Source: Cupriavidus necator (lineage in GTDB: Bacteria; Pseudomonadota; Gammaproteobacteria; Burkholderiales; Burkholderiaceae). Taken from it: a stretch of 32,000 bases of DNA. Below the pieces are notes generated by a model. The model saw only the letters and a list, made by a program, of their open reading frames with translations. It did not search any database and was not told the origin of the DNA. The position numbers and the translations under genes are program-made. The stretch lies in NCBI RefSeq assembly GCF_016127575.1, contig NZ_CP066019.1, forward strand, positions 2,880,555 to 2,912,554, given 5' to 3'. Below are positions 2,262 to 26,425 of this stretch, piece after piece (positions within the stretch are counted from its first letter, which is position 1; each line of letters opens with the position of its first letter).

Positions 2262-2353
2262 GCGCGGCACGTGGGGCACCCGGCGTCAGGTAGCGCAACT
2301 TTTTGCCAATCCGTCTCCTGGCGGCCACGAGTTCTGCGCAACGGTTCTGGCTG

Positions 2354-3352: not shown

Positions 3353-3551
3353 GATTCCTCACAACGCTCCATAGTTGGTTTCTCTCAGAAACACTCGCCT
3401 TGAGATATTGCCCCTGGCGGCCCCAGCATTTGCCTGCGAGGCCTTCCTTTTTTCGTTAAAGGAATTATTCCCGCGTGGTAGTGCGGTCGCAACGGGCCCG
3501 CGTGTGTCAGCGAACGCAGGATTGGCTCGCACTGGCTCATGCCGGTCGGCT

Positions 3552-5591: not shown

Positions 5592-6070
5592 TGGCCGGAA
5601 CCTCCGCGCACCAGAACGGGCAGGGGCCTGGCGGCGACCAGGCTGCGATAGGGACGCCCCATTTGCGGGGCGGACAAAGAAGGTTGCGCACGGTTATGCA
5701 TTGTCTTAAGGCTTCTTCTATGGGCAGCTCCACCGGCTGGTGGCCTCTGGAAGGGACATGCCCTTTCAGAGGCTTCCGATTTGCCCGTTTACCCGTCAGC
5801 GACTGGGTGCTTTCGACACCATTCCCGACTGAAACAATTATTGTTGTTGGTGCGTCCCTGGCAACGCAGCAGCGTGGGTTTGCGTACGCAGCGGCAGGTG
5901 GCGCAAAGGGCGTGGCGCCCGCCGCGCCCTTTGCGCCTTAGTTGAGTGATCCAGGCCACATGGCGGCCTTCACCTGCCCATGCAAGTCTGGTTAGATGGA
6001 TGCGTTCCCGGTACCCGGTCGGGTTCGTGCAGGGCACCCGCTCCGACTTTCATTACTGAGGTGGACCACC

Positions 6071-7324
6071 ATGCTGGATACCAGTTTTTCTCCCTGGCCA
6101 AGTTTCACTGCCGACGAGGCGGCTGCCGTGCAGAAGGTGCTGCTGTCGAACCGGGTGAACTACTGGACCGGCTCTGAATGCCGGAAGTTCGAGGAGGAAT
6201 TCGCCAGGTGGGCCGGGACGCCCTATGCGATCGCGCTGGCAAACGGGACACTTGCGCTCGATGTCGCGCTGAAGGCGCTGGACATTGGCCTTGGCGACGA
6301 GGTCGTGGTGACGCCGCGAACATTCATCGCCAGCATTTCAAGCGTGGTGAATGCGGGAGCAAAGCCGGTATTTGCAGACGTCGATCTTGCGAGCGGCAAT
6401 CTTTCCGCGGTGACGATCAGCAAGGTTCTGACGCCAAGGACGCGAGCCGTCATATGCGTGCACCTTGCCGGCATACCCTGCGACATGGACCCGATCATGG
6501 CGCTGGCGCGCGAGCACGGCATCAAGGTGATCGAGGATTGTGCCCAGGCACATGGTGCGCGCTACAAAGGGCGTTCGGTCGGCTCGATCGGGGACGTGGG
6601 TGCATGGTCCTTCTGCCAGGACAAGATTATGACCACCGGCGGCGAGGGCGGCATGGTGACGACCAGCGCGAGGGACCTCTGGCTGCGCATGTGGTCGTAC
6701 AAGGACCATGGCAAGAGCTGGGACGCTGTCTATGAGCGTCAGCACCCCCCGGGATTCCGGTGGTTGCACGAATCCTTCGGGACGAACTGGCGCATGATAG
6801 AAATGCAGGCGGTGATCGGGCGCATCCAGCTTGCGCGCATGAAGCAATGGACAGCGCAGCGCACTGCCAATGCGGAGGTCATTGCCGGCGCGCTTCGGCA
6901 ATGTGCTGCGGTCTGGTTGCCCGCCTGCCCACCGGATGCACAATCAGCCTGGTACAAGTTCTATGCATTCGTCCGCCCGGAATGGCTGAGGGATGGCTGG
7001 AGCCGTGACCGCATCGTGGCCGAGATCCAGGCAGGCGGCGTGCCCTGCTATGCGGGCGGCTGCTCGGAGGCTTATCTCGAGAAGGCGTTCGATTACACGG
7101 GCTGGCGCCCGCCGCACCGGTTGCCCAACGCCAGGCTGCTGGGTGAAAACAGCCTGATGCTGCTGGTGCATCCCACCCTGACCGACGCCGAGATTGCCCT
7201 GACTGCGCAGGTGCTGCGCGAGGTCATGCTTCGTGCAACGCTGCCGACCGGTGCCGGGCGGGACGCCGACGGCGGGGTGGTGCCCGGCCTGGCGCAGGAC
7301 TGCGCGGGCGCCATGCGGCGATGA
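6071..7324 (+). CDS. DegT/DnrJ/EryC1/StrS-family PLP-dependent sugar aminotransferase
   Basis: The PLP-lysine context SFCQDKIMTTGGEGGMV is typical of the family. The preferred start is ATG 6071 with a GAGGTGG SD. The ORF-track start at 5996 would add 25 residues that do not look conserved. The stop overlaps the next start (ATGATG at 7321-7326). Confidence 0.88.
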   Translation: MLDTSFSPWPSFTADEAAAVQKVLLSNRVNYWTGSECRKFEEEFARWAGTPYAIALANGTLALDVALKALDIGLGDEVVVTPRTFIASISSVVNAGAKPVFADVDLASGNLSAVTISKVLTPRTRAVICVHLAGIPCDMDPIMALAREHGIKVIEDCAQAHGARYKGRSVGSIGDVGAWSFCQDKIMTTGGEGGMVTTSARDLWLRMWSYKDHGKSWDAVYERQHPPGFRWLHESFGTNWRMIEMQAVIGRIQLARMKQWTAQRTANAEVIAGALRQCAAVWLPACPPDAQSAWYKFYAFVRPEWLRDGWSRDRIVAEIQAGGVPCYAGGCSEAYLEKAFDYTGWRPPHRLPNARLLGENSLMLLVHPTLTDAEIALTAQVLREVMLRATLPTGAGRDADGGVVPGLAQDCAGAMRR

Positions 7325-8070
7325 TGCACTGGCCGTCGCTGATCCAGCTTGGCACCATTACCTTGCTGGTGCCCGTTGCGCTGGTCATTGCGCTAGCGCT
7401 GTCCGTGGGGGGCGCATGGCGCAGCGCGCTGCGATGGCTGGTGTCGTTCAGCCTTGGCGCCGCGCTGGTGGGGGCTGCCAAGTTCGCGTTTGATTACGGC
7501 GGCTGGTACCTGCCGCAGCTCGGCCTGTACAGTGTCAGCGGCCACGCCATGCTGACCGCGGCGACGTATCCGGTGCTGCTGATGCTGCTGGGTTCGGCGC
7601 TGAGCCCGCGCGTGGCACGCATCGGCTGGTTCGCGGGACTGGCGCTGGGGCTCGCGATGGCGGTGAAACTGGTGTCCGGCAATTACCACACGCTGTCCGA
7701 GACCTTGCTGGGTGGTGCGGTGGGGCTGGCGGTTGCGTGGCTGAATGCGGGCATCCGTATCCGCGGGCCGGCGCCGCAGATCGTGCTGGTGGCTGCGCTT
7801 GGCATCGGCGCCTTCGTCTTTGTCAATGTGCGCGGGTTGCTGTACCCGGTCAAGGCCGCAATGTGGGAGCACGCGGCACCGTGGCAGGACGGCACAGTGC
7901 GGCATTACCGGCAGATCGACGCCGATCCGGTGACGGGCGAGACCCGCATCACCGTGCGCAAGCGGTCGTGCCTGTCGAAGCGGGGCCGGCAGGCGCCGCG
8001 TTTACTCACACCATCGAAAACAGGAACATCTACCCGGACACCAAGCTTGCTCTCGACGCAAACTACATGA
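7321..8070 (+). CDS. Polytopic membrane protein, degenerate PAP2-like (possible lipid/undecaprenyl phosphate phosphatase)
   Basis: 249-aa ORF with 5-6 hydrophobic helices, translationally coupled to the aminotransferase gene. VSGH and YHTLSETLLG resemble PAP2 motifs 2 and 3 (PSGH, SRx5Hx3D), but motif 1 (Kx6RP) is not recognisable. Confidence 0.5.
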   Translation: MMHWPSLIQLGTITLLVPVALVIALALSVGGAWRSALRWLVSFSLGAALVGAAKFAFDYGGWYLPQLGLYSVSGHAMLTAATYPVLLMLLGSALSPRVARIGWFAGLALGLAMAVKLVSGNYHTLSETLLGGAVGLAVAWLNAGIRIRGPAPQIVLVAALGIGAFVFVNVRGLLYPVKAAMWEHAAPWQDGTVRHYRQIDADPVTGETRITVRKRSCLSKRGRQAPRLLTPSKTGTSTRTPSLLSTQTT

Positions 8071-8477
8071 TTGGGCACTCTCATCATCAGTTTAAAACAG
8101 AAAATGGCAGTTTTATTCCTTACAACAGCGGTGATGTGGGGCAGAACAGGTTGCACATTAGTATCATTAATTATCTGGTATTTTGCACCGACGAAAATCA
8201 GGTAGAGATGAGGTAGGCCGCATATGCAAGGGGCCGTATCGGGCTGGCGCCTGCCGTGCCCGGGGCAGAACGCCGCGCCGGCCGTTTGGCAGGCCGCTGA
8301 CCGCCTCGCGCCGTGCGGGGTTGCCTCCGCGGAAGCGCACGCTGCGTGTCGTGCATTCGTCTACCCTGAACCATTCCAGCGCGGCGCTGGCCGCCTCACC
8401 CCTCGAGTAGGTGCGCCGCCGCGCACGCGTGGGCGGGCAGCGCAGAAATGGGTACGCTCCCCGGGCCTGTGCGCTTG

Positions 8478-9404
8478 TCAGTCGCGCGGCAGCGGTGCGC
8501 CGAGGCCGGCGGCACCCTGGCGCCCGGCGGCTCGCGGGCCGCGCAGCAGCTGCCACAGGCAAGTCGCCGTGTCATAGAAGGTGCCGGCGCCGCGCAGACC
8601 CGCTGCGCGCAGATGGTGCGCAAGGTCGTGCGGCAGGGCCAACAGCAGGAACACTGCCGTCTTCAGTGGGTGCTGCGGGCCATGGTCATAGCGCCGGCAG
8701 GCCACATACAGTCGTGAGGCGTCGCTGGCGGAGCATGGCCGGTCGGCCGACACCGACGGCAAGCGCTGGTTGACTGCGCTCGGGACCATCTCGATGCGGT
8801 AGCCGAATTCCTGCACCGCGCGTCCGGCCAGTTCCAGGTCGTCGTAGCCGACGGCAAGGTGCTCGTCGAACGACAGGTTCTCGAACAGCTCGCGCGGGAA
8901 CACCGCGCTGTGCAACAGCACCGAGCACAGGCGCTCGCCGCGGCGGTAGTCCAGCGTCGGGTGGCCCAGGAACGCCGGCTTGCGCGGAACGCCGCGCCGC
9001 CCCTGGCAGACCTCGGTCCCGGTCAGGATGAGCGGCGTCGCGCAGCCGGCCGTGGCCCGCCGGAGATGGTCGTCGGCAACGGACTCGGTCATCTGCTGCA
9101 GGAAGGTTGCGCCCAGCAGCGTCTGGTCATCCAGGAACAGTACGTGCGAGCCGGTGGCCGCGCGCAGGGCGCGGTTGCGGTTGGCGGCCCTGGAGCGGCG
9201 CGGGCCTTCCAGATAGGTGATGTCCGGATAGTCCCGGCGCATCATCTCGCGCGTGTCGTAGCCGCTGCTGTCATCCGTGACGATGAGCTGGTGCGCCGGC
9301 ATGGTGGAATCAGCGACCGATTGCAGCGTGTGCCGCAGCTGCTCGGGATGGTCGCACGTGTAGATGCACACCGAAACGGTGGGCAGGAACGAGCTTGCCG
9401 GCAT
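8478..9404 (-). CDS. Family 2 glycosyltransferase
   Basis: N-terminal GT-A signature VSVCIYTCDHPEQLRHTLQSV...LIVTDDSSGYDT...RAANRNRALRAATGSHVLFLDDQ. The preferred start is ATG 9404 with a GGAGGGG SD. The track start at 9473 adds an Arg-rich extension. Confidence 0.8.
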   Translation of the reverse strand: MPASSFLPTVSVCIYTCDHPEQLRHTLQSVADSTMPAHQLIVTDDSSGYDTREMMRRDYPDITYLEGPRRSRAANRNRALRAATGSHVLFLDDQTLLGATFLQQMTESVADDHLRRATAGCATPLILTGTEVCQGRRGVPRKPAFLGHPTLDYRRGERLCSVLLHSAVFPRELFENLSFDEHLAVGYDDLELAGRAVQEFGYRIEMVPSAVNQRLPSVSADRPCSASDASRLYVACRRYDHGPQHPLKTAVFLLLALPHDLAHHLRAAGLRGAGTFYDTATCLWQLLRGPRAAGRQGAAGLGAPLPRD

Positions 9405-9482
9405 GGTGACCCCTCCAATGTTCGGCAGATGGCAGACACCTGCGCCGGCCCGTCTGGTGCGGGCGCGGCGCAAGGTCCTGAA

Positions 9483-10439
9483 CTACAGCACCGGGCTGGC
9501 GGCCTGGAGCGCGGCTTCGCCGGTGCGGGACGCAACCACAGGGCGCGCGGTGCTGCCGCGCGTGAAGCGTTCATCGCCGCTGACCCACTCGAGCGTCGCG
9601 CCACGTTGCAGGGCGGCATAGACGGCCTCGCCCTTGTTGCGTACCTTCAGGCGCTGGTACAGCGTGCAGGCGTGACTCTTGACAGTTGCCACCGAGATAT
9701 TGAGCATGCGGCTGACGGTCTTGATCGGGTAGCCGCGTGCCAGCAGCACCAGCACCTCGTACTGGCGCGGCGTGATCTTCAGCATTTCGGCTTCGTCGTA
9801 GCTGGGCTCTTCCTCGACCAGCGGGGCTGCATTGGTGGCAGCCGGGGCCGACAGCGGCTGCCCCGGCCGGAGGCCGGTGAGGTCGCGCACCGCCACGGTG
9901 GTGCGTGCGGCACCGGGCGTGCCGGCGCATGCCACCAGCGACAGTTGCTCGCCTGTGAGCGCGTGCGCAGGGTTCAGCGGAAGCGGCGCGGCCGAGGCCA
10001 GCGACTGCACGGCCGGCATGGCCGAACGCGACGCCGACGGCATCGAGCCGGTTTCGGCCGAGAACAGCAGCCCCTGCACGCCTGACACCGCCAGCCGGAT
10101 GGCCGCCTCGATCACCGCCAGCGAAGCGGATTTCGGCAGGCAGCCGCAGACGCCGCGGGCGCTGTCCGCGTTGGGCACATGCAATGGCAAGATGTCTGCC
10201 AGGATCAGGATGCGTTGCGGCGACAGTGCTTCGCGGGCCTGTTCGAGCTGCGGCCAGCCAGACCCCACATCGGCGGGCATGCCGAATACGAGCAGGTCTG
10301 CGTTGTGGTGCCGGGTGTCCAGCCTGGCGATGTCCGCGGGCGCAATGGCGGCAACCTGGGCAGACTCCTGGATGTTCTCGAGCATCTGCAACAGCCCGAG
10401 CCGGAGCAGTGGATGCTCCTCGATCAGCAACGCGTTCAT
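9483..10439 (-). CDS. LuxR/FixJ-family transcriptional regulator with degenerate receiver-like N-domain
   Basis: C-terminal LuxR HTH (ITPRQYEVLVLLARGYPIKTVSRMLNISVATVKSHACTLYQRLKV). The N-terminal CheY-like fold reads LLIEEHPLL (EE instead of DD) and DLLVFGMP, where no Asp sits at the usual phospho-acceptor position; the K of GCLPKS is retained. ATG 10439 has a GGGGAG SD 8 nt upstream. The track start at 10448 is a GTG. Confidence 0.8.
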   Translation of the reverse strand: MNALLIEEHPLLRLGLLQMLENIQESAQVAAIAPADIARLDTRHHNADLLVFGMPADVGSGWPQLEQAREALSPQRILILADILPLHVPNADSARGVCGCLPKSASLAVIEAAIRLAVSGVQGLLFSAETGSMPSASRSAMPAVQSLASAAPLPLNPAHALTGEQLSLVACAGTPGAARTTVAVRDLTGLRPGQPLSAPAATNAAPLVEEEPSYDEAEMLKITPRQYEVLVLLARGYPIKTVSRMLNISVATVKSHACTLYQRLKVRNKGEAVYAALQRGATLEWVSGDERFTRGSTARPVVASRTGEAALQAASPVL

Positions 10440-10608
10440 TGACTTCACTCCCCGTTACTCGGGGGCGGAATGCGGGGCGCTTTGCGTATGGAGGGCATTG
10501 CAGGACAGCAGTCACCTGCGGCGACTGGCTGCTTGTCTGACCCCCATGCTTCCATGCTCCGGCAGTCCCGTTTTTCTGGATGGAACTTGTCGGTGGCTGG
10601 AAGGTTGA

Positions 10609-19713: not shown

Positions 19714-20499
19714 TCAGTCGCGCAGGCCCGGGCGGGTTTCGCTTTCCACCCAGACGTTGGCGCTGTCGACGCCGGCCGGCGACAACTCCATGCGGTATTC
19801 ATAGCGGTCCGGGCGGTACTGGCCGAGCAGCAACTGGACCGGGCGCCCGGCCGCGTCCTTGACCACGCGGCGCACCGCCAGCAGCGCGCCGCCTACCGGC
19901 ACGTCCAGCAGCGGCGCCACCACCACGTCGGCCAGGCGCGCGGACAGCACCTGGCTGGCACGGCCCAGCTTCACGCCGCCGGCCTCCAGCAGCCGCAGCA
20001 CCGGCCGCTCTTCCAGGGACTGGCGCGTGATCGGCCGGCCCAGGTCGGCGGGCAGGTAGACCGTGATATGCGACAGCGGCCGGTTGCGGTAGTGGCGCAC
20101 GCGCACGATCTTCACCACCGGATCGCCCGGCTCGATCTGCAGCGATTCGGCCACATCGGGCGTGGCATGGACTTCGTCGATCGAGATCACCTTCACCGAC
20201 GTCTTCTGGCCCATGTCGATGATGTTGTCGAGCAGGCTGGTGCCGCGTTCCTCGCCGGCCGCCGTCGCCGGGCGCACCGGATGCGGGTTGACGAAGGTGC
20301 CAAGCCCGCGGTGGCGGCGCACCAGGCCTTCTTGCACCAGGCGGTCGAACACGCGCCGCATGGTCACGCGCGAGGCGTGGAACTGCTTGGCCAGGTCGAT
20401 CTCGCCCGGCAAGGGGCCCTGGCCGAAGCGGCCTTCCACGATCTGCTGGCGCAATACCACGTAAATCTGGTGATACAGGGGAACGACGGCTTCACTCAT
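19714..20499 (-). CDS. GntR-family (HutC/UTRA-type) transcriptional regulator
   Basis: wHTH LPGEIDLAKQFHASRVTMRRVFDRLVQEGLVRRHRGLGTFV followed by a UTRA-like C-terminal domain. It is the first gene of the minus-strand module. Confidence 0.85.
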   Translation of the reverse strand: MSEAVVPLYHQIYVVLRQQIVEGRFGQGPLPGEIDLAKQFHASRVTMRRVFDRLVQEGLVRRHRGLGTFVNPHPVRPATAAGEERGTSLLDNIIDMGQKTSVKVISIDEVHATPDVAESLQIEPGDPVVKIVRVRHYRNRPLSHITVYLPADLGRPITRQSLEERPVLRLLEAGGVKLGRASQVLSARLADVVVAPLLDVPVGGALLAVRRVVKDAAGRPVQLLLGQYRPDRYEYRMELSPAGVDSANVWVESETRPGLRD

Positions 20500-21089
20500 G
20501 GTTTCCCTTGCGGAGAGATGACAAGTCTGTAATGCCTCTAATGTACTTTAAATCAGACATAGAGCCTAGCATGGTTAGCCGCAGTGGCGCTTGCGGGACA
20601 ACTGCGCCGGCGCGGTGTTGCAGCGATGCATCTCGTCTGTGCCGAGACCCTTGGCTGGCTGCGCCAGCGCGGGTGAAGTCGGTCTGGCGCCGCTGCATGC
20701 CTTGCTGGGATGGACAACGCCGGTGCGGTGGAGCGGGTTGTGCCGTGCGGCGAGAACAGGACATCGGGGCGCCGCCGCAGCAATGTGGAGATGCCCCACA
20801 CGGGCGGCGACGACGGCACCCTCGATGCCGTGTTTCAGTCCCGATACGTAAGGTCGCGCCTCGGGCAAATTCTGGCTGCCGGCATAAGACCCTGAAAAAT
20901 AAGGCGTTTTCCGACTACCCCGGAACCCCCCCAGGTGGGCCGGGAGTGGCCGTGTCACAGCGGTGTGACATGTCGTCTGCCGTGCACAGCGGCGAGGGCG
21001 GCAAGCGTCGCGCAAAGCCGCGGAAAGTCCCCGCCAGAGTGCCGGGCGGGCCTTGTAATACAAGGAGTTGGCGCCGCAGGTGGCGCAGC

Positions 21090-21104
21090 TGGCACCGATT
21101 ATGC
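21090..21104 (+). promoter_or_regulatory. Candidate sigma-54 (-24/-12) promoter
   Basis: TGGCAC-cgatt-ATGC compared with the consensus TGGCAC-N5-TTGC. The GG/GC spacing is correct and there is one mismatch in the -12 box. It sits about 120 bp upstream of ATG 21224. No enhancer-binding protein gene is visible in the window. Confidence 0.3.
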
Positions 21105-21223
21105 GCAAGGGGAGTCTGGTTTGGCTGGGTGCCGGACCTGAACCTCCAGCCGTCGTTCCTCGCAAGAGCGCCGGCCGGAGGCTGAGCCGCTGTGACACTG
21201 TGCAATTCTCCTGGGAGCTTCGT

Positions 21224-22738
21224 ATGAAAAAGACCTTACTGGCGTCGGCTATCGCCATGGCATTTGCGGGACAGGCCTGGGCAAATCCGACCAATAACAA
21301 CGACGTGGTAAGAGGTGGCGGCGACAACACGCAAACCGCCACAGCGACCTCGACGCAGAGTGGCAGCGGCGCGGCGGCAAACGAATATTCGACCGCAGTC
21401 CAGGCCAATGACAGCAGCACCAACACCAGAACCACCACGGTTGGCGTCAACAAGACCAAGACCACGACCAACTCGAACAACAGGAGCAGGATCGACTTTG
21501 ACCATGGCGTAGGCAACGCGGGCTCCAACGGTGGCAGCGCAACCTCCAGCGTAAGCAACGCCTTCAACACCAGCAAGGCACTGGCGATCAGCAAGCTGAA
21601 TGGCACGGTTTCCAACAACAGCATTGGCCCGATCGGCAATTACGCCACCAACTGGGGTAACGCGAATGGTGCAGCCGGTGGCCGGGGCGGCAATGGCTTT
21701 GGCGGTACCGGCGAAGGCGGGCGCGGCGGCAACGGCGGCAACGGCGGTAACGGCGGCAGCGGCGGCTCCGGTGGCAGCGCTACCAACGGTAGCGCCACCA
21801 ATGGCGACGCCACCAACGGCAGCGCCAACGCTGGTAATGGCGGTGCCGGCGGCAAGGCGATTGGCTGGGCCGGCAGTGGCGGTGACGGCAAGGCATATGG
21901 CGGCAGCGCACTCTCCGCAGCGGGCAGCAAGGGCGGCAGCGGCGGCGATGCTTATGGCAAGGGCGGCGGCGCTCTGAGCGCATCGCTCGGCGCCGGCGGC
22001 CGCGGCGGCAGTGCCGGCGCGATCGGCGGTGGTGGCCTGGGTGCCAGCGGCGCCCTGGGCGGCTTGGCAGGTTCGGCCGGCGGCTCAGGTGGTAGCAGCG
22101 GCAATGCCAACGGTGCGGGTGGCGACACTACCACTGGCGGCGCAGGCGGCGCAGGCGGCGCAGCGGCCGGTACCAACACGGCTGGCGCAGGCACCGGTTC
22201 GGGCGGCGCAGGTACCGCGAGTGGCGGTGCGGGCGGTGCCGGAACGGCAGCTGCAGGCGCGACCGGCGGAGCCGGCAGCGGCACCGGCGGTGCCGGTGGC
22301 GCGGGCGGCGCGGCGACCTCGACCGCAACGGCGGGCGCGGCAAGCGGCACCGGCGGCGCGGGCGGCACGCAAGCCAGCGTTGGCGGCGCGGGCGGTACTG
22401 GCGGTTCGGCCACGAACGGCAGCGCAACGAGTTCGGCCTCCAATGGCAGCTCCACGGCTGGCAACGGTGCGGTGGGTGCTACCGGCGGCGCGGGCGGCGC
22501 GGGCGGCACTGGCAATGGCGGCACTGGCGGCACCGGCAACGGCGCAGTCGGCGGCGCTGGCGGTAATGGCGGTTACAACATTGTTGACGCGGGCACCTTC
22601 AATATGTCCAACACCATGACCAGCGTTGGTCAAACGGCGGCGGGCATCATGATGGCCAACCAGAACAGCGGCGCTGCCTCGCTCGTGCAGCAAAGCGTGA
22701 ACGTTCAGGCCAACCTGCAGGTCGGCGGCAACCGGTAA
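21224..22738 (+). CDS. Secreted 504-aa glycine-rich (GGAGG/GGN, PGRS-like) protein; putative major cargo or fibre subunit of the C39/barrel operon
   Basis: GGGAG SD and signal peptide MKKTLLASAIAMAFAGQAWA. The order of regions is DVVRGG, a T/N/S-rich segment, about 306 aa of Gly/Ala/Ser/Thr/Asn low complexity (nt 21656-22573), and a C-terminal Q/N module ...TAAGIMMANQNSGAASLVQQSVNVQANL. The mature part has no Cys. Confidence 0.8.
   Translation: MKKTLLASAIAMAFAGQAWANPTNNNDVVRGGGDNTQTATATSTQSGSGAAANEYSTAVQANDSSTNTRTTTVGVNKTKTTTNSNNRSRIDFDHGVGNAGSNGGSATSSVSNAFNTSKALAISKLNGTVSNNSIGPIGNYATNWGNANGAAGGRGGNGFGGTGEGGRGGNGGNGGNGGSGGSGGSATNGSATNGDATNGSANAGNGGAGGKAIGWAGSGGDGKAYGGSALSAAGSKGGSGGDAYGKGGGALSASLGAGGRGGSAGAIGGGGLGASGALGGLAGSAGGSGGSSGNANGAGGDTTTGGAGGAGGAAAGTNTAGAGTGSGGAGTASGGAGGAGTAAAGATGGAGSGTGGAGGAGGAATSTATAGAASGTGGAGGTQASVGGAGGTGGSATNGSATSSASNGSSTAGNGAVGATGGAGGAGGTGNGGTGGTGNGAVGGAGGNGGYNIVDAGTFNMSNTMTSVGQTAAGIMMANQNSGAASLVQQSVNVQANLQVGGNR
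21725..21838 (+). repeat. In-frame tandem repeats inside the glycine-rich gene: 9-bp units (GGC GGC AAC/AGC) x6, then 15-bp units (GCC ACC AAC GGC AGC) x4
   Basis: Read directly. Positions 21725-21778 encode GGN GGN GGN GGS GGS GGS. Positions 21779-21838 encode ATNGS ATNGD ATNGS ANAGN. Confidence 0.85.
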
Positions 22739-22751
22739 GGCGTGCAGCCAC

Positions 22752-22784
22752 GGTCTGGCCCGGGACTTGTGCCCGGGCCAGACC
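22752..22784 (+). terminator. Perfect 13-bp GC-rich hairpin 14 nt after the stop of the glycine-rich gene (attenuator or terminator candidate)
   Basis: GGTCTGGCCCGGG-acttgtg-CCCGGGCCAGACC. No U-tract follows. Confidence 0.45.
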
Positions 22785-22805
22785 GGCAGCTCGCACTCAT
22801 GCCGG

Positions 22806-22848
22806 CAGGACCGGCGCCCGCATCCTGTGTGCGGGCGCGCGGGTCCTG
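22806..22848 (+). terminator. Second compound hairpin (7 + 9 bp) in the same intergenic gap
   Basis: CAGGACC g GCGCCCGCA-tcctgtg-TGCGGGCGC gcg GGTCCTG. The loop shares YTGTG with the first hairpin. No U-tract follows. Confidence 0.35.
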
Positions 22849-22923
22849 TCATGCCCCAAGCAAGCCTGATTGCCTTGCAGCCGTCCGGATGGGGGCGGCC
22901 GGCAGGCAAGGGGAGACGACATC

Positions 22924-23358
22924 ATGCAATCGGTCCGCTTCGCCGTCGGCGCATTCGCGACGGTCTTACTCGCCTGGCCAGTGCTGCAGGCGCACGCTGA
23001 GCCGCCAGGGCTGGACGCCGCCATGGCAGCGGCGCGCGCTGCTTCTGGCGCTGCCCCGGACACGGCTGCAATCACCGCACAGCCGACGGCCGCAACTTCC
23101 TTGTTCGGAGGGGTGGCGAAAGCCGTACCCGTGTCTAAACTGGATGACATCCGTGGCGGCGCCGAGGTCACGGTCAACGATATGCGCCTGCACGGTACCG
23201 TGGCCGACAACGCCGCGGTCAATATTCTGTCCGGCACCAACAACATCGCGGACGGGGCCTTCTCGAATGCGGCAGGGATTCCCACCGCGATCCAGAACTC
23301 GGGCTCCAACGTACTGATCCAGAACGCCACTATCGTCAACGTCCAGTTCAAGCAATGA
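22924..23358 (+). CDS. Secreted 144-aa protein with internal double-glycine motif and C-terminal Q/N module (putative minor subunit or nucleator)
   Basis: GGGGAG SD and signal peptide MQSVRFAVGAFATVLLAWPVLQAHA. An Ala/Pro-rich pro-region ends in VSKLDDIRGG. The C-terminal 65 aa end in ...NAAGIPTAIQNSGSNVLIQNATIVNVQFKQ. The stop overlaps the next ATG (ATGA at 23355-23358). Confidence 0.75.
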   Translation: MQSVRFAVGAFATVLLAWPVLQAHAEPPGLDAAMAAARAASGAAPDTAAITAQPTAATSLFGGVAKAVPVSKLDDIRGGAEVTVNDMRLHGTVADNAAVNILSGTNNIADGAFSNAAGIPTAIQNSGSNVLIQNATIVNVQFKQ

Positions 23359-24053
23359 AGCCGCTGCGAAACCTGTTGGCGTCTGTACCGTTCTTGCTGG
23401 CCGCGGGGGGCGTTCCATGTGCCCAGGCTGCCGACACCCTGATATACGGGCCGGTCGGCGAGTCCTACAACGTCCGGGTCACGAGCGTGCGCGAGGCTCG
23501 CTTCAAGTCCACGATCCGGCAGCAGTTCGACTTCAGCTGCGGCTCGGCCGCGGTGGCCACGCTGCTGAGCTACCAGTACGGCCATCCGATGAATGAGGCC
23601 ACGGTCTTCCAGAACATGTACCTCAACGGCGACCAGCAGAAGATCCGCGCCGAGGGGTTCTCGCTGCTCGACATGAAGCGCTTCCTGGCCGCGCTCGGCT
23701 ATGAGGCGGACGGCTACGAGCTGCCACTGTCCAAGCTGGAAGAGACGCAGGTGCCGGCCATCGTGCTGATCGTGGAGAACGGTTACCACCATTTCGTGGT
23801 GGTCAAGGGCGTGAAGGGCGACCGCGTGCTGATCGGCGATCCCGCACGCGGCACGCGCGCGATGTCACGCGAGCATTTCGAGCAGATCTGGGACAGCCAG
23901 CTGCTGTTCGTGATCCATAACCGCACCGAACGGGCGCGGTTCAACCTTGCAGCCGACTGGCGCGTTGCGCCGAGCGGTCCTTACTGGATGGGAGTCAACC
24001 GGGATAGCTTGTTCTTCACCGTCATGCCCAAGCATGGCGCGGGCGATTTTTGA
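23355..24053 (+). CDS. Periplasmic stand-alone C39-family cysteine peptidase (FapD-like)
   Basis: Signal peptide MKPLRNLLASVPFLLAAGGVPCAQA. Gln56 and Cys62 sit in RQQFDFSCGSAAVATLL (Q six residues before C). His146 sits in GYHHFVVVKG and Asp162 in LIGDP (His-to-Asp spacing of 16). This is the canonical C39 catalytic arrangement. Confidence 0.85.
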   Translation: MKPLRNLLASVPFLLAAGGVPCAQAADTLIYGPVGESYNVRVTSVREARFKSTIRQQFDFSCGSAAVATLLSYQYGHPMNEATVFQNMYLNGDQQKIRAEGFSLLDMKRFLAALGYEADGYELPLSKLEETQVPAIVLIVENGYHHFVVVKGVKGDRVLIGDPARGTRAMSREHFEQIWDSQLLFVIHNRTERARFNLAADWRVAPSGPYWMGVNRDSLFFTVMPKHGAGDF

Positions 24054-24063
24054 GGAACGCATC

Positions 24064-24909
24064 ATGTTGCAGACTTCCTTCCCGACCCCAGCAGCCCCTC
24101 GCAGCGCCGGTCATGCGGCCGCGGCGATGCTGCTCGGGGCCGGTTTGGCCTGTGCCGGCACGGCGCAGGCCACCATGCTGCCACAGCCCGACGCCCTCGA
24201 CGCGTCGGCGCTTCCATTGCAGGGGGCCATGCCCTCGAGCGACGGGCAGGACCAAAACCCTCTGGCTGCCGCACGCGGCAGCATGGCCGGCTGGAAACCG
24301 GTAGCACACGAAAAACTCGACGACATGCGGGGCGGCTTCGAAGTGCCGGGCCTGCAGGTTTCGTTCGGTATCGAACGCGCGGTGTACATCAACGGGGCCC
24401 TGGTGGTTGCCACCAGCATTAACATCCCCGATGTCAGCCGTATCACCGCCGACCAGGCTGCGCGGCTTGCCTCGACGCTGGGCCCGGCCATCGTTGCCAG
24501 CACCAATGCGGCGGTCGCCAACGCGCTGGCGGCGGCGGGCGCGGCCGGTTCGGATGGGAGCGCCACCTCGGCGGCCAATGGCGCCTCGGCCAGCAGCACC
24601 GGCACGTCCGGGGCCGGTTCGGGCGCCAGCGGTGCGGCGGGCTTGCCGGCGGCGGTGGTGAATACGGCCACCGGTCAGGTCGTGAGCAATGGGCTGTTGA
24701 ACGTGATCCAGAACGGCCCGGGCAATGCGGCATCGGTGGGATCGCTGGCGGGGACGCCAACGACCGTGATCCAGAACACCTTGAACAACCAGAGCATCCG
24801 GAGCCTGATGACAATCGACGCAAGCGTAAATACGCTGCAGGCATTCCGGTCGCAGTTGGCCAACACCACGCTGAACAACGCGCTGATGCGGGCCGCAAGC
24901 ATGAGGTAG
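24064..24909 (+). CDS. Secreted 281-aa protein with internal double-glycine motif, beta-rich core, G/A/S linker and degenerate Q/N module (FapE-position protein)
   Basis: GAGGAA SD and signal peptide ...AAAAMLLGAGLACAGTAQA. The pro-region ends in HEKLDDMRGG. It continues with FEVPGLQVSFGIERAVYINGALVVATSINIP, a Gly/Ala/Ser stretch, and then LLNVIQNGPGN...SLAGTPTTVIQNTLNNQ. Confidence 0.75.
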   Translation: MLQTSFPTPAAPRSAGHAAAAMLLGAGLACAGTAQATMLPQPDALDASALPLQGAMPSSDGQDQNPLAAARGSMAGWKPVAHEKLDDMRGGFEVPGLQVSFGIERAVYINGALVVATSINIPDVSRITADQAARLASTLGPAIVASTNAAVANALAAAGAAGSDGSATSAANGASASSTGTSGAGSGASGAAGLPAAVVNTATGQVVSNGLLNVIQNGPGNAASVGSLAGTPTTVIQNTLNNQSIRSLMTIDASVNTLQAFRSQLANTTLNNALMRAASMR

Positions 24910-24985
24910 TCGTAGCGAGGCATCGGGCAGTACAGGTCGCAGGCTCCTGCAAGAACAGCCTGCCGTCCCGGGGGAGGAAGACGTC

Positions 24986-26425
24986 ATGAAGAAGCGGTCG
25001 ATGCAGGGCATTCGCAATGCGGGATGCTCGACGTTACTGTTGCTCGGCGGCCTGGCGCAGGCCCAGACGCCGCCGGATGCGGGACCACCCGCAGCCGGAC
25101 TGGAAGCACTGCAGAAGGAGCTTGCCGAACAGGCCACCCAGCTCGACGCCATGAAGCGGGCGCTGGCCGAACAGGAGGCGCTGATCCGCGAACTGCGTAA
25201 CGTGATCGGCACCGAGGTGCTGGCCAACAAGCGCGGCGGCCAGCGCGCGGGGCCAGGCGTGTCGCCGTCCGACAATGCCACCAACGCCGCTACCGCGGCG
25301 GCCGCTGCCAGCGCCACCCAGTCAGCGCCCAACGCGGTCAACAACCCGCAGCAGATCATTCTCCAGCCACCGCAGGACATGGCCCAGGGTCCGCAGGCGG
25401 GCGAGTCCGCCGACCGGCAGACCGTGGCCCTGGAAGAACCCGTGGGCCGCCCGCCGGAGGAAGACCGCCGTCCGCCTGAGATCGCGCCGATCATCGACCA
25501 GCCCGGCGTGCTGACCGCCCAGGGCAAGCTGGTGATCGAGCCCGGCTTCCAGTACGGCTATTCGTCCAATAACCGCGTCGCGCTGGTCGGCTACACGGTC
25601 ATCCCGGCCATCCTGATCGGCCTGGTCGATGTGCGCGAAGTCAAGACCTCGACCTACATCCCGTCGGTAGCGTTTCGCTACGGCCTGACCAAGCGGCTGG
25701 AAATCGAAGCCAAGGTGCCTTACGTGCACTCATCGGGCCAGACAGTCAGCCGCGAGGTCTTCACCGGCACGGCCGTCGACCGCGTGTTCAATGCGAGCGG
25801 CAGCGGTATCGGCGACGTCGAGGCGACGGTGCGCTACCAGCTCAACTACGGCAACGAGAAGATTCCGTACTTCGTCGGCTGGCTGCGCTACAAGTCCAAT
25901 ACCGGCACCGACCCGTTCGAGGTCGTGACCGACTGCGTGACGCGCTGCGTGGGCAATGCCACCGGCACCGGCCTGCCGCTCGGGTTGCCCACCGGCACCG
26001 GCTTCCAGGCGATCCAGCCCGGCATCACCTGGCTGCTGCCGACTGACCCGGCGGTGTTCTTCGGCACCTTCAGCTACCTGCACAACTTTGCGCGCGACAA
26101 CGTGAGCCGCACCGTGCTGAACGGCGAGAAGGAGAATCTCGGCAAGATCGCCCCCGGCGACATCTTCGAGTTCAGCTTCGGCATGGGCCTGTCGCTCAAT
26201 GAGAAGGCGTCGTTCAGCATCGGCTATGACCAGGCCATCATCTGGCCGACCAAGCAGAACGGCCAGACCGTGCCGGGCTCGGTGCGCGTGACCCAGGGCA
26301 CCTTGCTGGTGGGCTATTCGTACCGCTTCAACAACCGCTACACGGTGAACCTTTCAGTGGGTGCGGGGCTGACGCGCGACACCCCCGACCTGCAGGTGAA
26401 CCTGCGCCTGCCAATCACTTTCTGA
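24986..26425 (+). CDS. Outer-membrane beta-barrel with N-terminal coiled coil and disordered linker (FapF-like; MetA/phenol-degradation-type barrel fold family)
   Basis: GGAGGAAG SD and a signal peptide ending LAQA. A clean 5-heptad a/d pattern runs L39 L42 L46 Q49 L53 M56 L60 Q63 I67 L70 I74 (nt 25100-25207). It is followed by about 90 aa of A/P/Q/N-rich linker, then alternating beta-strand sequence ending ...VNLRLPITF with a terminal Phe. Confidence 0.8.
   Translation: MKKRSMQGIRNAGCSTLLLLGGLAQAQTPPDAGPPAAGLEALQKELAEQATQLDAMKRALAEQEALIRELRNVIGTEVLANKRGGQRAGPGVSPSDNATNAATAAAAASATQSAPNAVNNPQQIILQPPQDMAQGPQAGESADRQTVALEEPVGRPPEEDRRPPEIAPIIDQPGVLTAQGKLVIEPGFQYGYSSNNRVALVGYTVIPAILIGLVDVREVKTSTYIPSVAFRYGLTKRLEIEAKVPYVHSSGQTVSREVFTGTAVDRVFNASGSGIGDVEATVRYQLNYGNEKIPYFVGWLRYKSNTGTDPFEVVTDCVTRCVGNATGTGLPLGLPTGTGFQAIQPGITWLLPTDPAVFFGTFSYLHNFARDNVSRTVLNGEKENLGKIAPGDIFEFSFGMGLSLNEKASFSIGYDQAIIWPTKQNGQTVPGSVRVTQGTLLVGYSYRFNNRYTVNLSVGAGLTRDTPDLQVNLRLPITF

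What the first reader, a model, noticed from the sequence alone, without database searches (positions are those of the whole stretch)
21224..26425. Five-gene Sec-dependent C39-peptidase + coiled-coil barrel operon with novel low-complexity cargo (Fap-like logic, non-Fap substrates)
Five co-directional genes all encode Sec signal peptides: A 21224-22738, B 22924-23358, C 23355-24053, D 24064-24909 and E 24986-26425. A, B and D are Cys-free proteins rich in Q/N/G/A/S/T. C is a stand-alone periplasmic C39 cysteine peptidase with an intact Q/C/H/D arrangement. E is an outer-membrane barrel preceded by a coiled coil and a long disordered linker. A periplasmic C39 peptidase combined with a coiled-coil barrel is the hallmark of the Pseudomonas fapABCDEF functional-amyloid secretion system (FapD and FapF). 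This locus differs in several ways: there is no FapA-like gene, the large subunit comes first, and as far as I recall the cargo lacks the FapC-type triple repeats and C-terminal CxxC. The main cargo instead carries a roughly 300-aa PGRS-like glycine domain. I read this as either a very divergent Fap system or a distinct, uncharacterised extracellular fibre/adhesin export system.
Basis: partly seen in the sequence, partly recalled or inferred. Interest (0 to 1): 0.9.

Follow-up and report, generated by a model that had tools for sequence, protein, structure and literature searches.

The report
Fap-like fibre export operon, new cargo
This Cupriavidus five-gene operon is an unnamed, widespread relative of the Pseudomonas Fap amyloid-secretion system. 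Two of its cargo proteins carry a textbook double-glycine cleavage motif, which suggests what the system's long-unexplained periplasmic protease cuts.

Summary
The five genes exist as described. C is a signal-peptide-bearing C39 peptidase with invariant Gln, Cys, His and Asp. E is a FapF-type outer-membrane barrel preceded by a coiled coil and a disordered linker. The top 18 PDB fold matches are FapF; the COG4313 channel comes second.

The set A-B-C-D-E is conserved in about 75 of the 80 best loci from Burkholderiales and Xanthomonadales. At least 560 species genomes hold an E relative, and the same layout occurs in Sphingomonadales plasmids. No sixth gene is conserved.

C and E score far below NCBIfam's FapD/FapF and FilB/FilC cut-offs. 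A, B and D match no curated family and are misnamed in public databases: E as 'acetate kinase', D as 'flagellin'.

New here:
- D is a remote FapE relative.
- A and B share one FapC-like repeat at the C-terminus.
- B and D carry an invariant L(-7)..h(-4).GG motif after a hypervariable spacer, matching the canonical LSxxELxxIxGG leader. FapE proteins carry the same motif ending G-[R/K].

Best reading: a sister system to Fap. Cargo crosses the inner membrane by Sec, the C39 peptidase trims it in the periplasm, and it is exported through E to build a surface fibre or matrix. Cleavage and fibre formation are inferred, not shown.

The parts
20500..21223 (+). 724-nt non-coding region between a divergent GntR/UTRA regulator gene (19714-20499, - strand) and gene A; presumed promoter and 5' leader
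   Evidence: ORF map and Pfam GntR+UTRA match. No sigma-70 consensus match and no Rfam family. A regulatory role is inferred only.
21224..22738 (+). Gene A, large cargo (504 aa). Signal peptide residues 1-20. T/S/N-rich N-domain residues 21-131. Gly-rich low-complexity core residues 132-464 (42% G; nt 21617-22615). Conserved C-terminal FapC-like repeat residues 451-504 (nt 22574-22735).
   Evidence: Homologues found in 74 of 80 loci. The core varies in length (total protein 300-550 aa), whereas the C-terminal ~55 aa are conserved. C-terminus against mature B: hhalign probability 82%, E 1e-5. No Pfam or NCBIfam family. Only short period-9 DNA repeats.
22739..22923 (+). Structured A-B intergenic spacer with two long GC-rich hairpins
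   Evidence: RNA fold MFE -120.6 kcal/mol, z -5.35 against shuffles. A spacer of 57-290 nt is present in all 71 measurable loci. A role in differential expression of A versus B-E is inferred.
22924..23358 (+). Gene B, small cargo (144 aa). Signal peptide residues 1-25. Variable spacer plus double-glycine-type leader residues 26-79, ending ..VSKLDDIRGG (nt 22999-23160). Conserved 65-aa mature domain residues 80-144.
   Evidence: L(-7) and GG are 100% conserved in 77 sequences. Length upstream of GG is 45-107 aa; downstream is 63-70 aa.
23355..24053 (+). Gene C, periplasmic stand-alone C39 cysteine peptidase (232 aa). Signal peptide residues 1-25. Q56, C62, H146, D162. Conserved C-terminal extension from about residue 188 to 232.
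   Evidence: Pfam PF03412 8.9e-25. NCBIfam FapD 146.5 bits (cut-off 330) and FilB 136.6 bits (cut-off 475). Invariant catalytic residues in alignment A5. PDB sequence matches are C39 domains of PCAT/ComA transporters.
24064..24909 (+). Gene D, FapE-like protein (281 aa). Signal peptide residues 1-36. Variable spacer plus double-glycine-type leader residues 37-91, ending ..VAHEKLDDMRGG (nt 24172-24336). Conserved mature part residues 92-281.
   Evidence: L85, R89, G90 and G91 are invariant, and the leader is 41-471 aa long. FapE link. The AlphaFold2 model is low confidence (mean pLDDT 48), with a helix at residues 82-88 just before GG.
24986..26425 (+). Gene E, FapF-type outer-membrane channel (479 aa). 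Signal peptide residues 1-26. Coiled coil residues 36-82. Disordered linker residues 83-150. Invariant Pro-rich pre-barrel segment residues 151-178. Beta-barrel residues 179-479.
   Evidence: PDB FapF E 7e-28. NCBIfam FapF 143 bits (cut-off 700). AlphaFold2 model. Foldseek: FapF E 7e-19, TM 0.80-0.83; COG4313 4rl8 E 5e-11, TM 0.72. Heptads. Family alignments.

Best explanation
The operon encodes a self-contained, Sec-dependent surface-fibre or matrix secretion system. It is a sister of the Pseudomonas Fap system and shares its FapD-FapE-FapF-type export module (C, D, E).

Proposed steps:
1. All five proteins cross the inner membrane by Sec. N-terminal signal peptides are seen; transport is inferred.
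2. E forms a FapF-like outer-membrane channel with a periplasmic coiled coil. Homology and fold are shown; trimerisation is inferred.
3. In the periplasm, the C39 peptidase C removes a second, double-glycine-type leader from D and B by cutting after the invariant ..L-x-x-h-R-G-G. The motif and the intact active site are shown; cleavage is inferred.
4. Processed D (FapE-like) primes or opens the channel, or nucleates assembly. This is inferred from Fap genetics.
5. Unfolded, Cys-free, almost uncharged A and B are threaded through E and assemble outside the cell by stacking their shared C-terminal FapC-like repeat. The long Gly-rich region of A forms the bulk of the fibre or matrix. This is inferred.

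The structured A-B spacer probably lets the major subunit A be made in excess over B-E.
For: - C is a C39 peptidase with a signal peptide and invariant Q, C, H and D.
- E is FapF-like by sequence and fold.
- The five-gene set is conserved in about 75 of 80 loci from Burkholderiales and Xanthomonadales. It occurs as ABCDE, or as ABCD convergent with E. No other gene is conserved.
- The same layout occurs in Sphingomonadales plasmids.
- D resembles FapE: hhalign E 7e-4 and 1e-4; the D-HMM hits FapE-labelled proteins at 4e-6 and 8e-5. Gene order C-D-E matches fapD-E-F.
- B and D have L(-7) at 98-100%, hydrophobic residues at -4 and -12, and GG at 100%. This matches the canonical consensus LSXXELXXIXGG (PMC1538908).
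- The motif sits exactly at the boundary between a hypervariable upstream part (45-107 aa and 41-471 aa) and a length-constrained, conserved downstream part.
- 130 of 133 FapE-family representatives carry the same motif ending G-[R/K], at a median position of residue 53.
[quoted passage not shown] FapD's catalytic Cys is required for secretion, and its substrate is unknown (PMC5557850, PMC6173800).
- A and B share a C-terminal motif (hhalign probability 82%, E 1e-5) that resembles FapC repeat 3.
Against: - No experiment exists on this family; nothing was found in the searchable literature.
- Cleavage at GG is inferred from sequence only. The motif could instead be a recognition or folding element.
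- In FapE, position -1 is R/K, which is not a known C39 P1 residue. The small cargo of Sphingomonadales also has G-[K/R].
- Similarity of A and B to FapC/FapB is weak: E 0.034, and 3 of 41 B members hit FapB at E 0.04 or weaker. A and B have one repeat, not three.
- The D model has low confidence (pLDDT 48), and the D-FapE profile match is only 57% probability.
- No plug helix is predicted in E.
- No promoter, terminator or riboswitch match was found.
Confidence: 0.62

Rival explanations
1. It is simply a very divergent fap operon. A and B would be orthologues of FapC and FapB and make a classical Fap-type cross-beta amyloid, so no new system needs to be named.
For: - C, D and E are homologous to FapD, FapE and FapF and lie in the same order.
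- A and B carry a FapC-like repeat motif.
- Three of 41 B members weakly hit the NCBIfam FapB model.
- Loss of fapA is the commonest fap variant (PMC3792158).
Against: - C scores 146 bits and E 143 bits. The Aeromonas fap operon, itself divergent, scores 249 and 371. The equivalog cut-offs are 330 and 700.
- A, B and D give no hit to the FapC or FapE models, even at E up to 10 across 41 members each.
- The cargo has one repeat instead of three, and A has a 330-aa, 42%-Gly core.
- B and D have a GG leader, which FapB and FapC lack.
Confidence: 0.2
2. The L..h.RGG motif is not a cleavage site. It would be a docking or targeting element for the E coiled coil or for C acting as a chaperone, or the first strand of the folded domain. 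C would cut something else, such as the E linker, or nothing at all.
For: - FapE has G-[R/K] at the equivalent position, which is atypical for C39 cleavage.
- All 80 E proteins carry L-x3-R-[G/A] at the coiled-coil/linker junction.
- Rouse et al. proposed that FapD may cut the FapF linker (PMC5557850).
- Some C39-like domains are non-catalytic chaperones (PMC6173800).
Against: - The catalytic Q, C, H and D are invariant in C, and the FapD catalytic Cys is essential for secretion (PMC5557850).
- The motif matches the cleaved bacteriocin leader consensus at positions -12, -7, -4, -2 and -1 (PMC1538908).
- It marks a sharp change from variable to conserved sequence.
- The FapE N-terminus is lost in vivo (PMC5557850).
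Confidence: 0.25
3. The operon is a bacteriocin or microcin-like toxin system. B (65-aa mature peptide with a GG leader) and Gly-rich A would be antibacterial peptides released through E.
For: - Double-glycine leaders and Gly-rich sequences are typical of class II microcins processed by C39 domains.
- Microcins can self-assemble in biofilms (title and abstract of PMC13188072, listed).
Against: - All cargo proteins have Sec signal peptides.
- No ABC transporter, membrane-fusion protein or immunity gene is conserved nearby.
- Mature B is strongly conserved across two orders, rather than diversifying.
- A is 300-550 aa long.
- The machinery is homologous to a fibre-secretion system.
Confidence: 0.04
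4. E is a COG4313/MetA-pathway-type uptake channel for hydrophobic compounds, and its adjacency to the other genes is incidental.
For: COG4313 Pput2725 (4rl8) is the second-best fold match (E 5e-11, TM 0.72). A lone homologous barrel without a C39 neighbour exists on a Vibrio plasmid.
Against: - The 18 best fold hits are FapF, at 25-27% identity against 13% for 4rl8.
- The only PDB sequence hits are FapF.
- E has the coiled coil and linker that uptake channels lack.
- Linkage to A-D is conserved in about 75 of 80 loci, while flanking genes differ.
Confidence: 0.02

Closest known systems
Pseudomonas Fap functional-amyloid system (fapABCDEF; FapF structures 5O65/5O67/5O68)
   Same: - All components are Sec-exported.
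- The periplasmic C39 peptidase (FapD/C) has a catalytic Cys.
- A FapE-like protein carries an ..EL..MRG.. motif directly after a spacer.
- The outer-membrane barrel is FapF-type, with an N-terminal coiled coil and a disordered linker.
- The gene order is peptidase, E-like protein, barrel.
- The two cargo paralogues are Cys-poor and polar, and share a G-A-F..A.G.....SG.N.L..N-type repeat.

   Different: - Scores are far below the NCBIfam equivalog cut-offs: C 146 against 330, E 143 against 700.
- A, B and D do not hit the FapB/C/E models.
- The cargo has one repeat rather than three, no CxxC, and there is no FapA.
- The large subunit comes first and has a 42%-Gly core.
- Both B and D carry a strict GG leader, whereas only FapE carries the motif in Fap, ending G-R/K.
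- The pre-barrel segment is Pro-rich and not predicted helical.

Acinetobacter Fil 'pilus' system (NCBIfam pilus_FilB C39 peptidase and pilus_FilC barrel; FilA is a fibre subunit of Acinetobacter sp. Tol 5, PMC11784438)
   Same: It is another fibre system built around a FapD-like peptidase and a FapF-like barrel. C hits FilB at 1e-39 and E hits FilC at 6e-10.
   Different: Scores are far below the cut-offs (137 against 475; 39 against 630). No Fil-family hit was seen for A, B or D. No Fil locus could be retrieved here, so its cargo and motifs were not compared.
Double-glycine-leader peptides processed by C39 domains of PCAT/ABC exporters (class II bacteriocins, microcins, ComC). From my own knowledge, not tested here: cyanobacterial EbfG matrix proteins processed by PteB.
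   Same: The leader pattern L(-12)S(-11)..E(-8)L(-7)..I(-4).G(-2)G(-1) is matched by B and D at positions -12, -7, -4, -2 and -1 (PMC1538908). The protease has the C39 fold and catalytic residues.
   Different: Here the protease is a free periplasmic enzyme, not the cytoplasmic domain of an ABC exporter. The leader lies downstream of a Sec signal peptide and a variable spacer, so there are two successive leaders. Export across the outer membrane is through a beta-barrel, not TolC.
Curli (CsgA/B with the CsgG channel)
   Same: The logic is the same: Sec export, unfolded Q/N/G-rich subunits, a dedicated outer-membrane channel, and extracellular nucleated assembly.
   Different: There is no homology. 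One D member hit CsgA only at E 0.75. There is no CsgG/E/F, and curli has no protease.

Membership tests
Peptidase C39 (Pfam PF03412) | Profile match above the gathering score, with the catalytic Cys/His/Asp and the oxyanion Gln | tested here: met
   87.5 bits against a cut-off of 22. Q56, C62, H146 and D162 are invariant in 28 sequences.
Fap system (fapABCDEF) | FapF: outer-membrane barrel of the FapF fold preceded by a coiled coil and linker | tested here: met
   PDB FapF E 7e-28. Foldseek top 18 hits are FapF, TM 0.80-0.83. Helix 36-73 and disordered residues 81-174. Trimer state was not testable.
Fap system (fapABCDEF) | FapF plug helix closing the barrel | tested here: inconclusive
   The invariant pre-barrel segment (residues 151-178) aligns with the start of the FapF-beta construct, but it is Pro-rich, has low pLDDT, and is not predicted helical.
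Fap system (fapABCDEF) | FapD and FapF score at or above the NCBIfam equivalog cut-offs | tested here: not met
   C scores 146.5 against 330; E scores 143.3 against 700. The Aeromonas fap operon scores 249 and 371.
Fap system (fapABCDEF) | A FapE protein | tested here: inconclusive
   No NCBIfam FapE hit for 41 D members at E up to 10. Against that, hhalign D versus FapE gives E 7e-4 and 1e-4 (probability 26% and 57%), the D-HMM hits FapE-labelled representatives at 4e-6, and the two share the L..MRG motif.
Fap system (fapABCDEF) | FapB/FapC subunits with three imperfect repeats (and a C-terminal CxxC in FapC, from my own knowledge) | tested here: not met
   No FapC hit. FapB is hit weakly (E 0.041 or weaker) by 3 of 41 B members. 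A B-family profile search of the Protein Data Bank sequences at E up to 10 returned nothing. Only one FapC-like repeat is present. A and B have no Cys.
Fap system (fapABCDEF) | FapA | tested here: not met
   No sixth gene is conserved in the 80 loci. FapA is dispensable and often absent in real fap operons (PMC3792158).
Fap system (fapABCDEF) | The product is an amyloid fibre (ThT or Congo red binding; dissolves only in formic acid) | not testable with these tools
   Needs wet-lab work.
Acinetobacter Fil system | FilB and FilC score at or above the NCBIfam cut-offs | tested here: not met
   136.6 against 475; 39 against 630.
Double-glycine-leader substrates of C39 peptidases | Leader consensus LSxxELxxIxGG: hydrophobic at -12, -7 and -4, and G at -2 and -1 | tested here: met
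   B: V/M/L/I 83% at -12, L 100% at -7, L/I/M/H/V 86% at -4, GG 100%. D: 94%, 98%, 75% and 100% at the same positions. Consensus from PMC1538908.
Double-glycine-leader substrates of C39 peptidases | The leader is actually removed by the cognate peptidase | not testable with these tools
   Only indirect support: loss of the FapE N-terminus in Pseudomonas (PMC5557850).
COG4313 / MetA-pathway uptake channels | Best structural and sequence match to Pput2725-type channels, in a catabolic gene context | tested here: not met
   4rl8 ranks behind all FapF chains (13% identity, TM 0.72). No PDB sequence hit. The conserved neighbours are A-D, not catabolic genes.

The most novel reading that the evidence does not exclude
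FapDEF-type modules would define a broad, largely unnamed class of outer-membrane secretion systems. In this class, substrates carry two successive leaders: a Sec signal peptide and then a periplasmic double-glycine-type leader. A free C39 peptidase licenses export through a FapF-like barrel by removing the second leader. This Burkholderiales/Xanthomonadales branch would export a new kind of glycine-rich fibre or matrix protein, anchored by a single amyloid-type repeat. The same rule (cut after ..L..h.R-G-x) would identify FapE as the long-sought FapD substrate in Pseudomonas.
Probability: 0.4. Interest if true: 0.8.

Novelty: new variant of a known kind. Interest (0 to 1): 0.62.

Why it matters
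**An open question becomes testable.** The Fap field has not known what FapD cleaves or what FapE does since 2017. This family supplies a cleaner sequence signal: strict GG in two substrates, a sharp boundary between variable and conserved sequence, and the same motif in 130 of 133 FapE relatives. That turns the question into a simple test using peptide cleavage, N-terminal mass spectrometry and GG-to-AA mutants.

**A widespread system is unnamed and mislabelled.** At least 560 species genomes hold an E relative. They include Cupriavidus, the Burkholderia cepacia complex, Ralstonia, Lysobacter and Rhodanobacter. The components are currently labelled 'acetate kinase', 'flagellin' or hypothetical.

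**The cargo may be useful.** The 42%-Gly, nearly uncharged cargo anchored by one amyloid-type repeat could be a new biofilm-matrix material. It could also serve as a secretion scaffold for engineering in the biotechnological host C. necator.

Tried and rejected
- Pfam and NCBIfam scans of A, B and D, singly and as 41-member sets at E up to 10, gave no meaningful family.
- Profile searches of the B and D families against PDB sequences found nothing.
- Rfam on the whole window found no family.
- The promoter and terminator consensus scan found nothing above the shuffle background.
- AlphaFold2 of D with a 65-sequence, Cupriavidus-only alignment gave mean pLDDT 48, so no fold search was attempted.
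- The idea that A is a B paralogue split by a Gly-rich insertion has support only at the C-terminal end. The N-terminal 'LNGTVS' match is weak (E 0.007, probability 5%), so the idea was dropped.
- The 'RGG' near the N-terminus of A (residues 30-32), which looked like a third GG site, is not conserved in homologues and was rejected.
- Five literature searches found no description of this system: FapF-like/FapD-like, periplasmic C39 with double-glycine, Cupriavidus with C39 and amyloid, Fap-like, and C39 with genus names. The library misses most subscription-journal papers.
- A conserved regulator or chaperone was sought by all-vs-all clustering of ORFs in the 80 loci. None was found: the next-best cluster occurs in 22 loci or fewer, and the upstream gene in Xanthomonadales is citrate synthase.

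Full report
**Observation**

The window is from Cupriavidus necator. The D protein is 100% identical and the E protein 98-100% identical to C. necator and Cupriavidus sp. SK-4 entries.

The gaps between them are 185 nt, -4 nt (overlap), 10 nt and 76 nt.

All five proteins begin with a Sec-type signal peptide by simple criteria: K/R residues in the n-region, a hydrophobic core, and an AxA-type site.
- A (504 aa) is 31% Gly. Residues 132-464 form a 42%-Gly core.
- A and B have no Cys. The only Cys in D lies in its signal peptide.
- C is a Pfam Peptidase_C39 protein (8.9e-25).
- Residues 160-479 of E match the FapF crystal sequences at 7e-28.

**Is E FapF-like or a catabolic porin?**

An AlphaFold2 model was built from a 55-sequence alignment. 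It gives a long helix at residues 36-73 (pLDDT about 70), a disordered stretch at 81-174, and a barrel at 175-479 with pLDDT mostly 70-92.

In Foldseek against the PDB, the 18 best hits are FapF chains (E down to 7e-19, TM 0.80-0.83, 25-27% identity). The COG4313 channel 4rl8 follows (E 5e-11, TM 0.72, 13% identity).

Residues 38-75 show six heptads with L/I at one core position. The segment before the barrel (PVGxAPxxDxRPPEVAPIFDQPGVLT) is nearly invariant in the family. It is not predicted helical, so a FapF-type plug helix is not confirmed.

**Conservation**

The 80 best loci were fetched. They come from:
- Burkholderiales: Cupriavidus, Ralstonia, Pandoraea, Paraburkholderia, Burkholderia (including the cepacia complex) and Trinickia.
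- Xanthomonadales/Lysobacterales: Lysobacter, Pseudoxanthomonas, Luteibacter, Dyella, Rhodanobacter and Luteimonas.

phmmer searches of A-E against six-frame ORFs found A in 74 loci, B in 76, C in 77, D in 79 and E in 79. The order is ABCDE, or ABCD convergent with E in Burkholderia, Paraburkholderia, Ralstonia and Trinickia.

Nearly all the misses are contig ends. Only Cupriavidus sp. BIS7 has E alone.

All-vs-all clustering of every ORF in the 80 loci shows that only these families are conserved in more than 70 loci. The next cluster occurs in 22 loci or fewer. The module is therefore autonomous, with no FapA analogue and no conserved regulator.

The same layout occurs on plasmids of the Sphingomonadales Polymorphobacter and Croceicoccus: large low-complexity protein, small protein, C39 peptidase, a protein of about 230 aa, then the barrel. 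There the glycine-rich core is replaced by N/S/T/D repeats.

**Relation to named families**

| Protein | NCBIfam model | Score (bits) | Cut-off (bits) |
|---|---|---|---|
| C | FapD | 146.5 | 330 |
| C | FilB | 136.6 | 475 |
| E | FapF | 143.3 | 700 |
| E | FilC | 39 | 630 |

A real but divergent fap operon from Aeromonas caviae was recovered by tblastn. Its proteins score 78 (FapB), 173 (FapC), 249 (FapD), 47 (FapE) and 371 (FapF) on the same models. The present system is therefore further from Pseudomonas Fap than the Aeromonas operon is.

A, B and D match no Pfam or NCBIfam family, either singly or as 41-member sets. The only exception is a marginal FapB hit for 3 of 41 B members.

Public names are misleading: 'acetate kinase' for E and 'flagellin' for D.

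The literature already noted two things. FapD and FapF HMMs hit many proteins outside fap operons (PMC3792158). FapD/FapF homologue pairs co-localise in further phyla (PMC6173800). No paper describing this cargo or system was found.

**What the cargo proteins look like**

B family (41-sequence alignment A2; 77 sequences in all):
- The architecture is a signal peptide, then a spacer that varies in sequence and length, then an invariant L-x-x-h-[R/S/T]-G-G, then a 63-70-aa domain. That domain is well conserved..L.GTV.DN.A.N..SG.N.I.DGAF.NA.G.PTVIQNSG.NVLIQNATIVNVQF.

D family (A3; 79 sequences):
- The architecture is a signal peptide, then a spacer of 41-471 aa, then invariant L85, R89, G90, G91, then a conserved part of about 120 aa.

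A family:
- The architecture is a signal peptide, a T/S/N-rich N-domain, a Gly-rich core of very variable length, and a conserved C-terminal ~55 aa..DAGTFNMSN.MTSVGQSAAGIM.ANQNSG.ASLVQQSVNVQANL.VG.
- The A C-terminus and mature B share a motif (hhalign probability 82%, E 1e-5, 60% identity over 25 columns).
- B aligns with repeat 3 of Aeromonas FapC: IDGGAFNGAVGNIGVNVSSGTNNLQAN against IADGAFSNAAGIPTAIQNSGSNVLIQN. The match is weak (E 0.034).
- So A and B each carry one FapC-type repeat rather than three.

**D is FapE-like**

- The D profile against Aeromonas FapE gives E 7e-4. The match is collinear across four blocks: L..LRG, G.s.FGIE, ITxxQA and VQN.
- Against a 15-sequence FapE alignment it gives E 1e-4, probability 57%.
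- A FapE profile search of 1.84 billion representatives returned 199 proteins. All 10 sampled have FapE as their only NCBIfam hit.
- The D-HMM hits two of them at 4e-6 and 8e-5 within that set.
- Together with the gene order C-D-E = fapD-fapE-fapF, this makes D the FapE counterpart. The homology is remote and only moderately supported.

**The double-glycine-type leader**

Position-specific counts, numbered back from the residue after the invariant Gly:

| Position | B family | D family | FapE representatives (130 of 133 full-length carry the motif) |
|---|---|---|---|
| -12 | V/M/L/I 83% | V/L/I 94% | L/V/I 93% |
| -11 | not conserved | not conserved | S 43% |
| -10 | not conserved | not conserved | D 88% |
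| -8 | not conserved | R/K/Q 90% | E 52% |
| -7 | L 100% | L 98% | L (required by the search pattern) |
| -4 | L/I/M/H/V 86% | M/L/I 75% | M/L/I 86% |
| -3 | R 72% / S 19% | R 100% | R (required by the search pattern) |
| -2 | G 100% | G 100% | G (required by the search pattern) |
| -1 | G 100% | G 100% | R/K 96% |
| +1 | variable | F 78% | Y/F 97% |

This pattern matches the canonical double-glycine leader LSXXELXXIXGG (PMC1538908). In FapE the last residue differs.

In both B and D the motif sits at the switch from hypervariable to conserved sequence. The top-residue frequency is 0.39 before it and 0.64 after it in B, and 0.38 and 0.58 in D.

In the low-confidence D model, the only structured piece near pLDDT 70 includes a helix at residues 82-88, directly before G90-G91.

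C keeps the Gln/Cys/His/Asp set in all 28 aligned relatives, including Aeromonas FapD and the two alphaproteobacterial enzymes.

Published work supports the link. FapD's catalytic Cys is required for secretion. FapE is the only Fap protein lacking its first ~70 residues in vivo. FapD's substrate is 'yet to be determined' (PMC5557850, PMC6173800). In the FapE representatives the motif ends at a median position of residue 53.

**Mechanism proposed**

Steps 1 and 2 rest on direct sequence and fold evidence. Steps 3 to 5 are inference.
1. All five proteins are exported by Sec.
2. E forms the outer-membrane channel.
3. C removes the second, GG-type leader from D and B in the periplasm.
4. Processed D acts as the initiator or adaptor, as proposed for FapE.
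5. A and B stay unfolded and are threaded through E. They have no Cys, and A has 30 charged residues in 504. They assemble outside the cell through their shared repeat, and the Gly-rich part of A forms the bulk.

The A-B spacer is always present (57-290 nt) and strongly folded. In the window its MFE is -120.6 kcal/mol with z -5.35. This is compatible with higher expression of the major subunit.

**Caveats**

- There is no experimental evidence for this family.
- GG cleavage is inferred from sequence alone.
- R/K at position -1 in FapE, and in the small cargo of Sphingomonadales, is not a known C39 P1 residue. The motif may therefore be a docking element instead.
- E itself has L-x3-R-[G/A] at the end of its coiled coil in 80 of 80 sequences, which could be another target.
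- Similarity of the cargo to FapB/C is weak.
- The D model is poor.

**Verdict**

This is a new variant of a known kind: a widespread, unnamed sister of the Fap and Fil systems. Its added value is a clear, testable candidate for the cleavage motif of FapD-type peptidases.

Noticed in passing
window 24986-26425 (E) and 24064-24909 (D); homologues: Public databases name E homologues 'acetate kinase' and D homologues 'flagellin' across dozens of species. Neither name is supported by any domain match. This looks like a propagated misannotation.
   Followed up: partly
window 25220-25240 (E residues 79-85, LANKRGG): All 80 E-family proteins carry L-x3-R-[G/A]-x at the junction of the coiled coil and the disordered linker (RGG 34, RGA 15, RAR 13, RAG 9). 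This may be a further target or docking site for the C39 peptidase, echoing the published idea that FapD may cut the FapF linker.
   Followed up: partly
window 25934-25948 (E residues C317 and C321, TDCVTRCVGN): An invariant Cys pair sits in a low-confidence loop of the barrel, whereas the cargo is Cys-free. It is presumably a loop disulfide.
   Followed up: no
window ~23916-24050 (C residues ~188-232): C has a conserved ~45-aa C-terminal extension beyond the C39 domain (FN...DWRVAP....PK[H/R]G.GD[F/I]). Its function is unknown; it may dock onto E.
   Followed up: no
window 22739-22923: The A-B spacer folds into two long GC-rich hairpins (z -5.35) and has no U-tract. A spacer of 57-290 nt is present in all related loci, whereas B and C overlap by ATGA.
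   Followed up: partly
L027 11642-17477 and L054 11161-16909 (Paraburkholderia): These loci carry two tandem A paralogues. Their D proteins have leaders of more than 400 aa containing 'VSYAAPIAVP'-type repeats upstream of the invariant RGG.
   Followed up: no
L085 4595-8966 (Polymorphobacter plasmid); L086 4657-8921 (Croceicoccus plasmid): The alphaproteobacterial versions of the operon replace the Gly-rich core with N/S/T/D tandem repeats (NRASGYNT.., DNSIDVADSGNDNS..). The D-like protein keeps RGG, but the small cargo has L..h.G-[K/R].
   Followed up: partly
L022 (Cupriavidus sp. BIS7) 8041-9507: E is present without A-D within the 8 kb upstream or 10 kb downstream. It is either an orphan barrel or part of a split system.
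   Followed up: partly
window 3552-10448 and 19714-20499: Upstream lie polysaccharide-biosynthesis genes (Polysacc_synt_2 at 3552-5591, GT2 at 8478-9473) and a LuxR-type regulator (9483-10448). A GntR/UTRA regulator is transcribed divergently from A across a 724-nt gap. Any regulatory link to the operon is untested.
   Followed up: no
L081 (Aeromonas caviae NZ_AP026896.1) 1966-4062: The record is labelled a plasmid but is 4.9 Mb. An IS4-like transposase gene sits directly upstream of a fapB ORF that lacks a visible signal peptide, so the 5' end of this fap operon may be disrupted.
   Followed up: no
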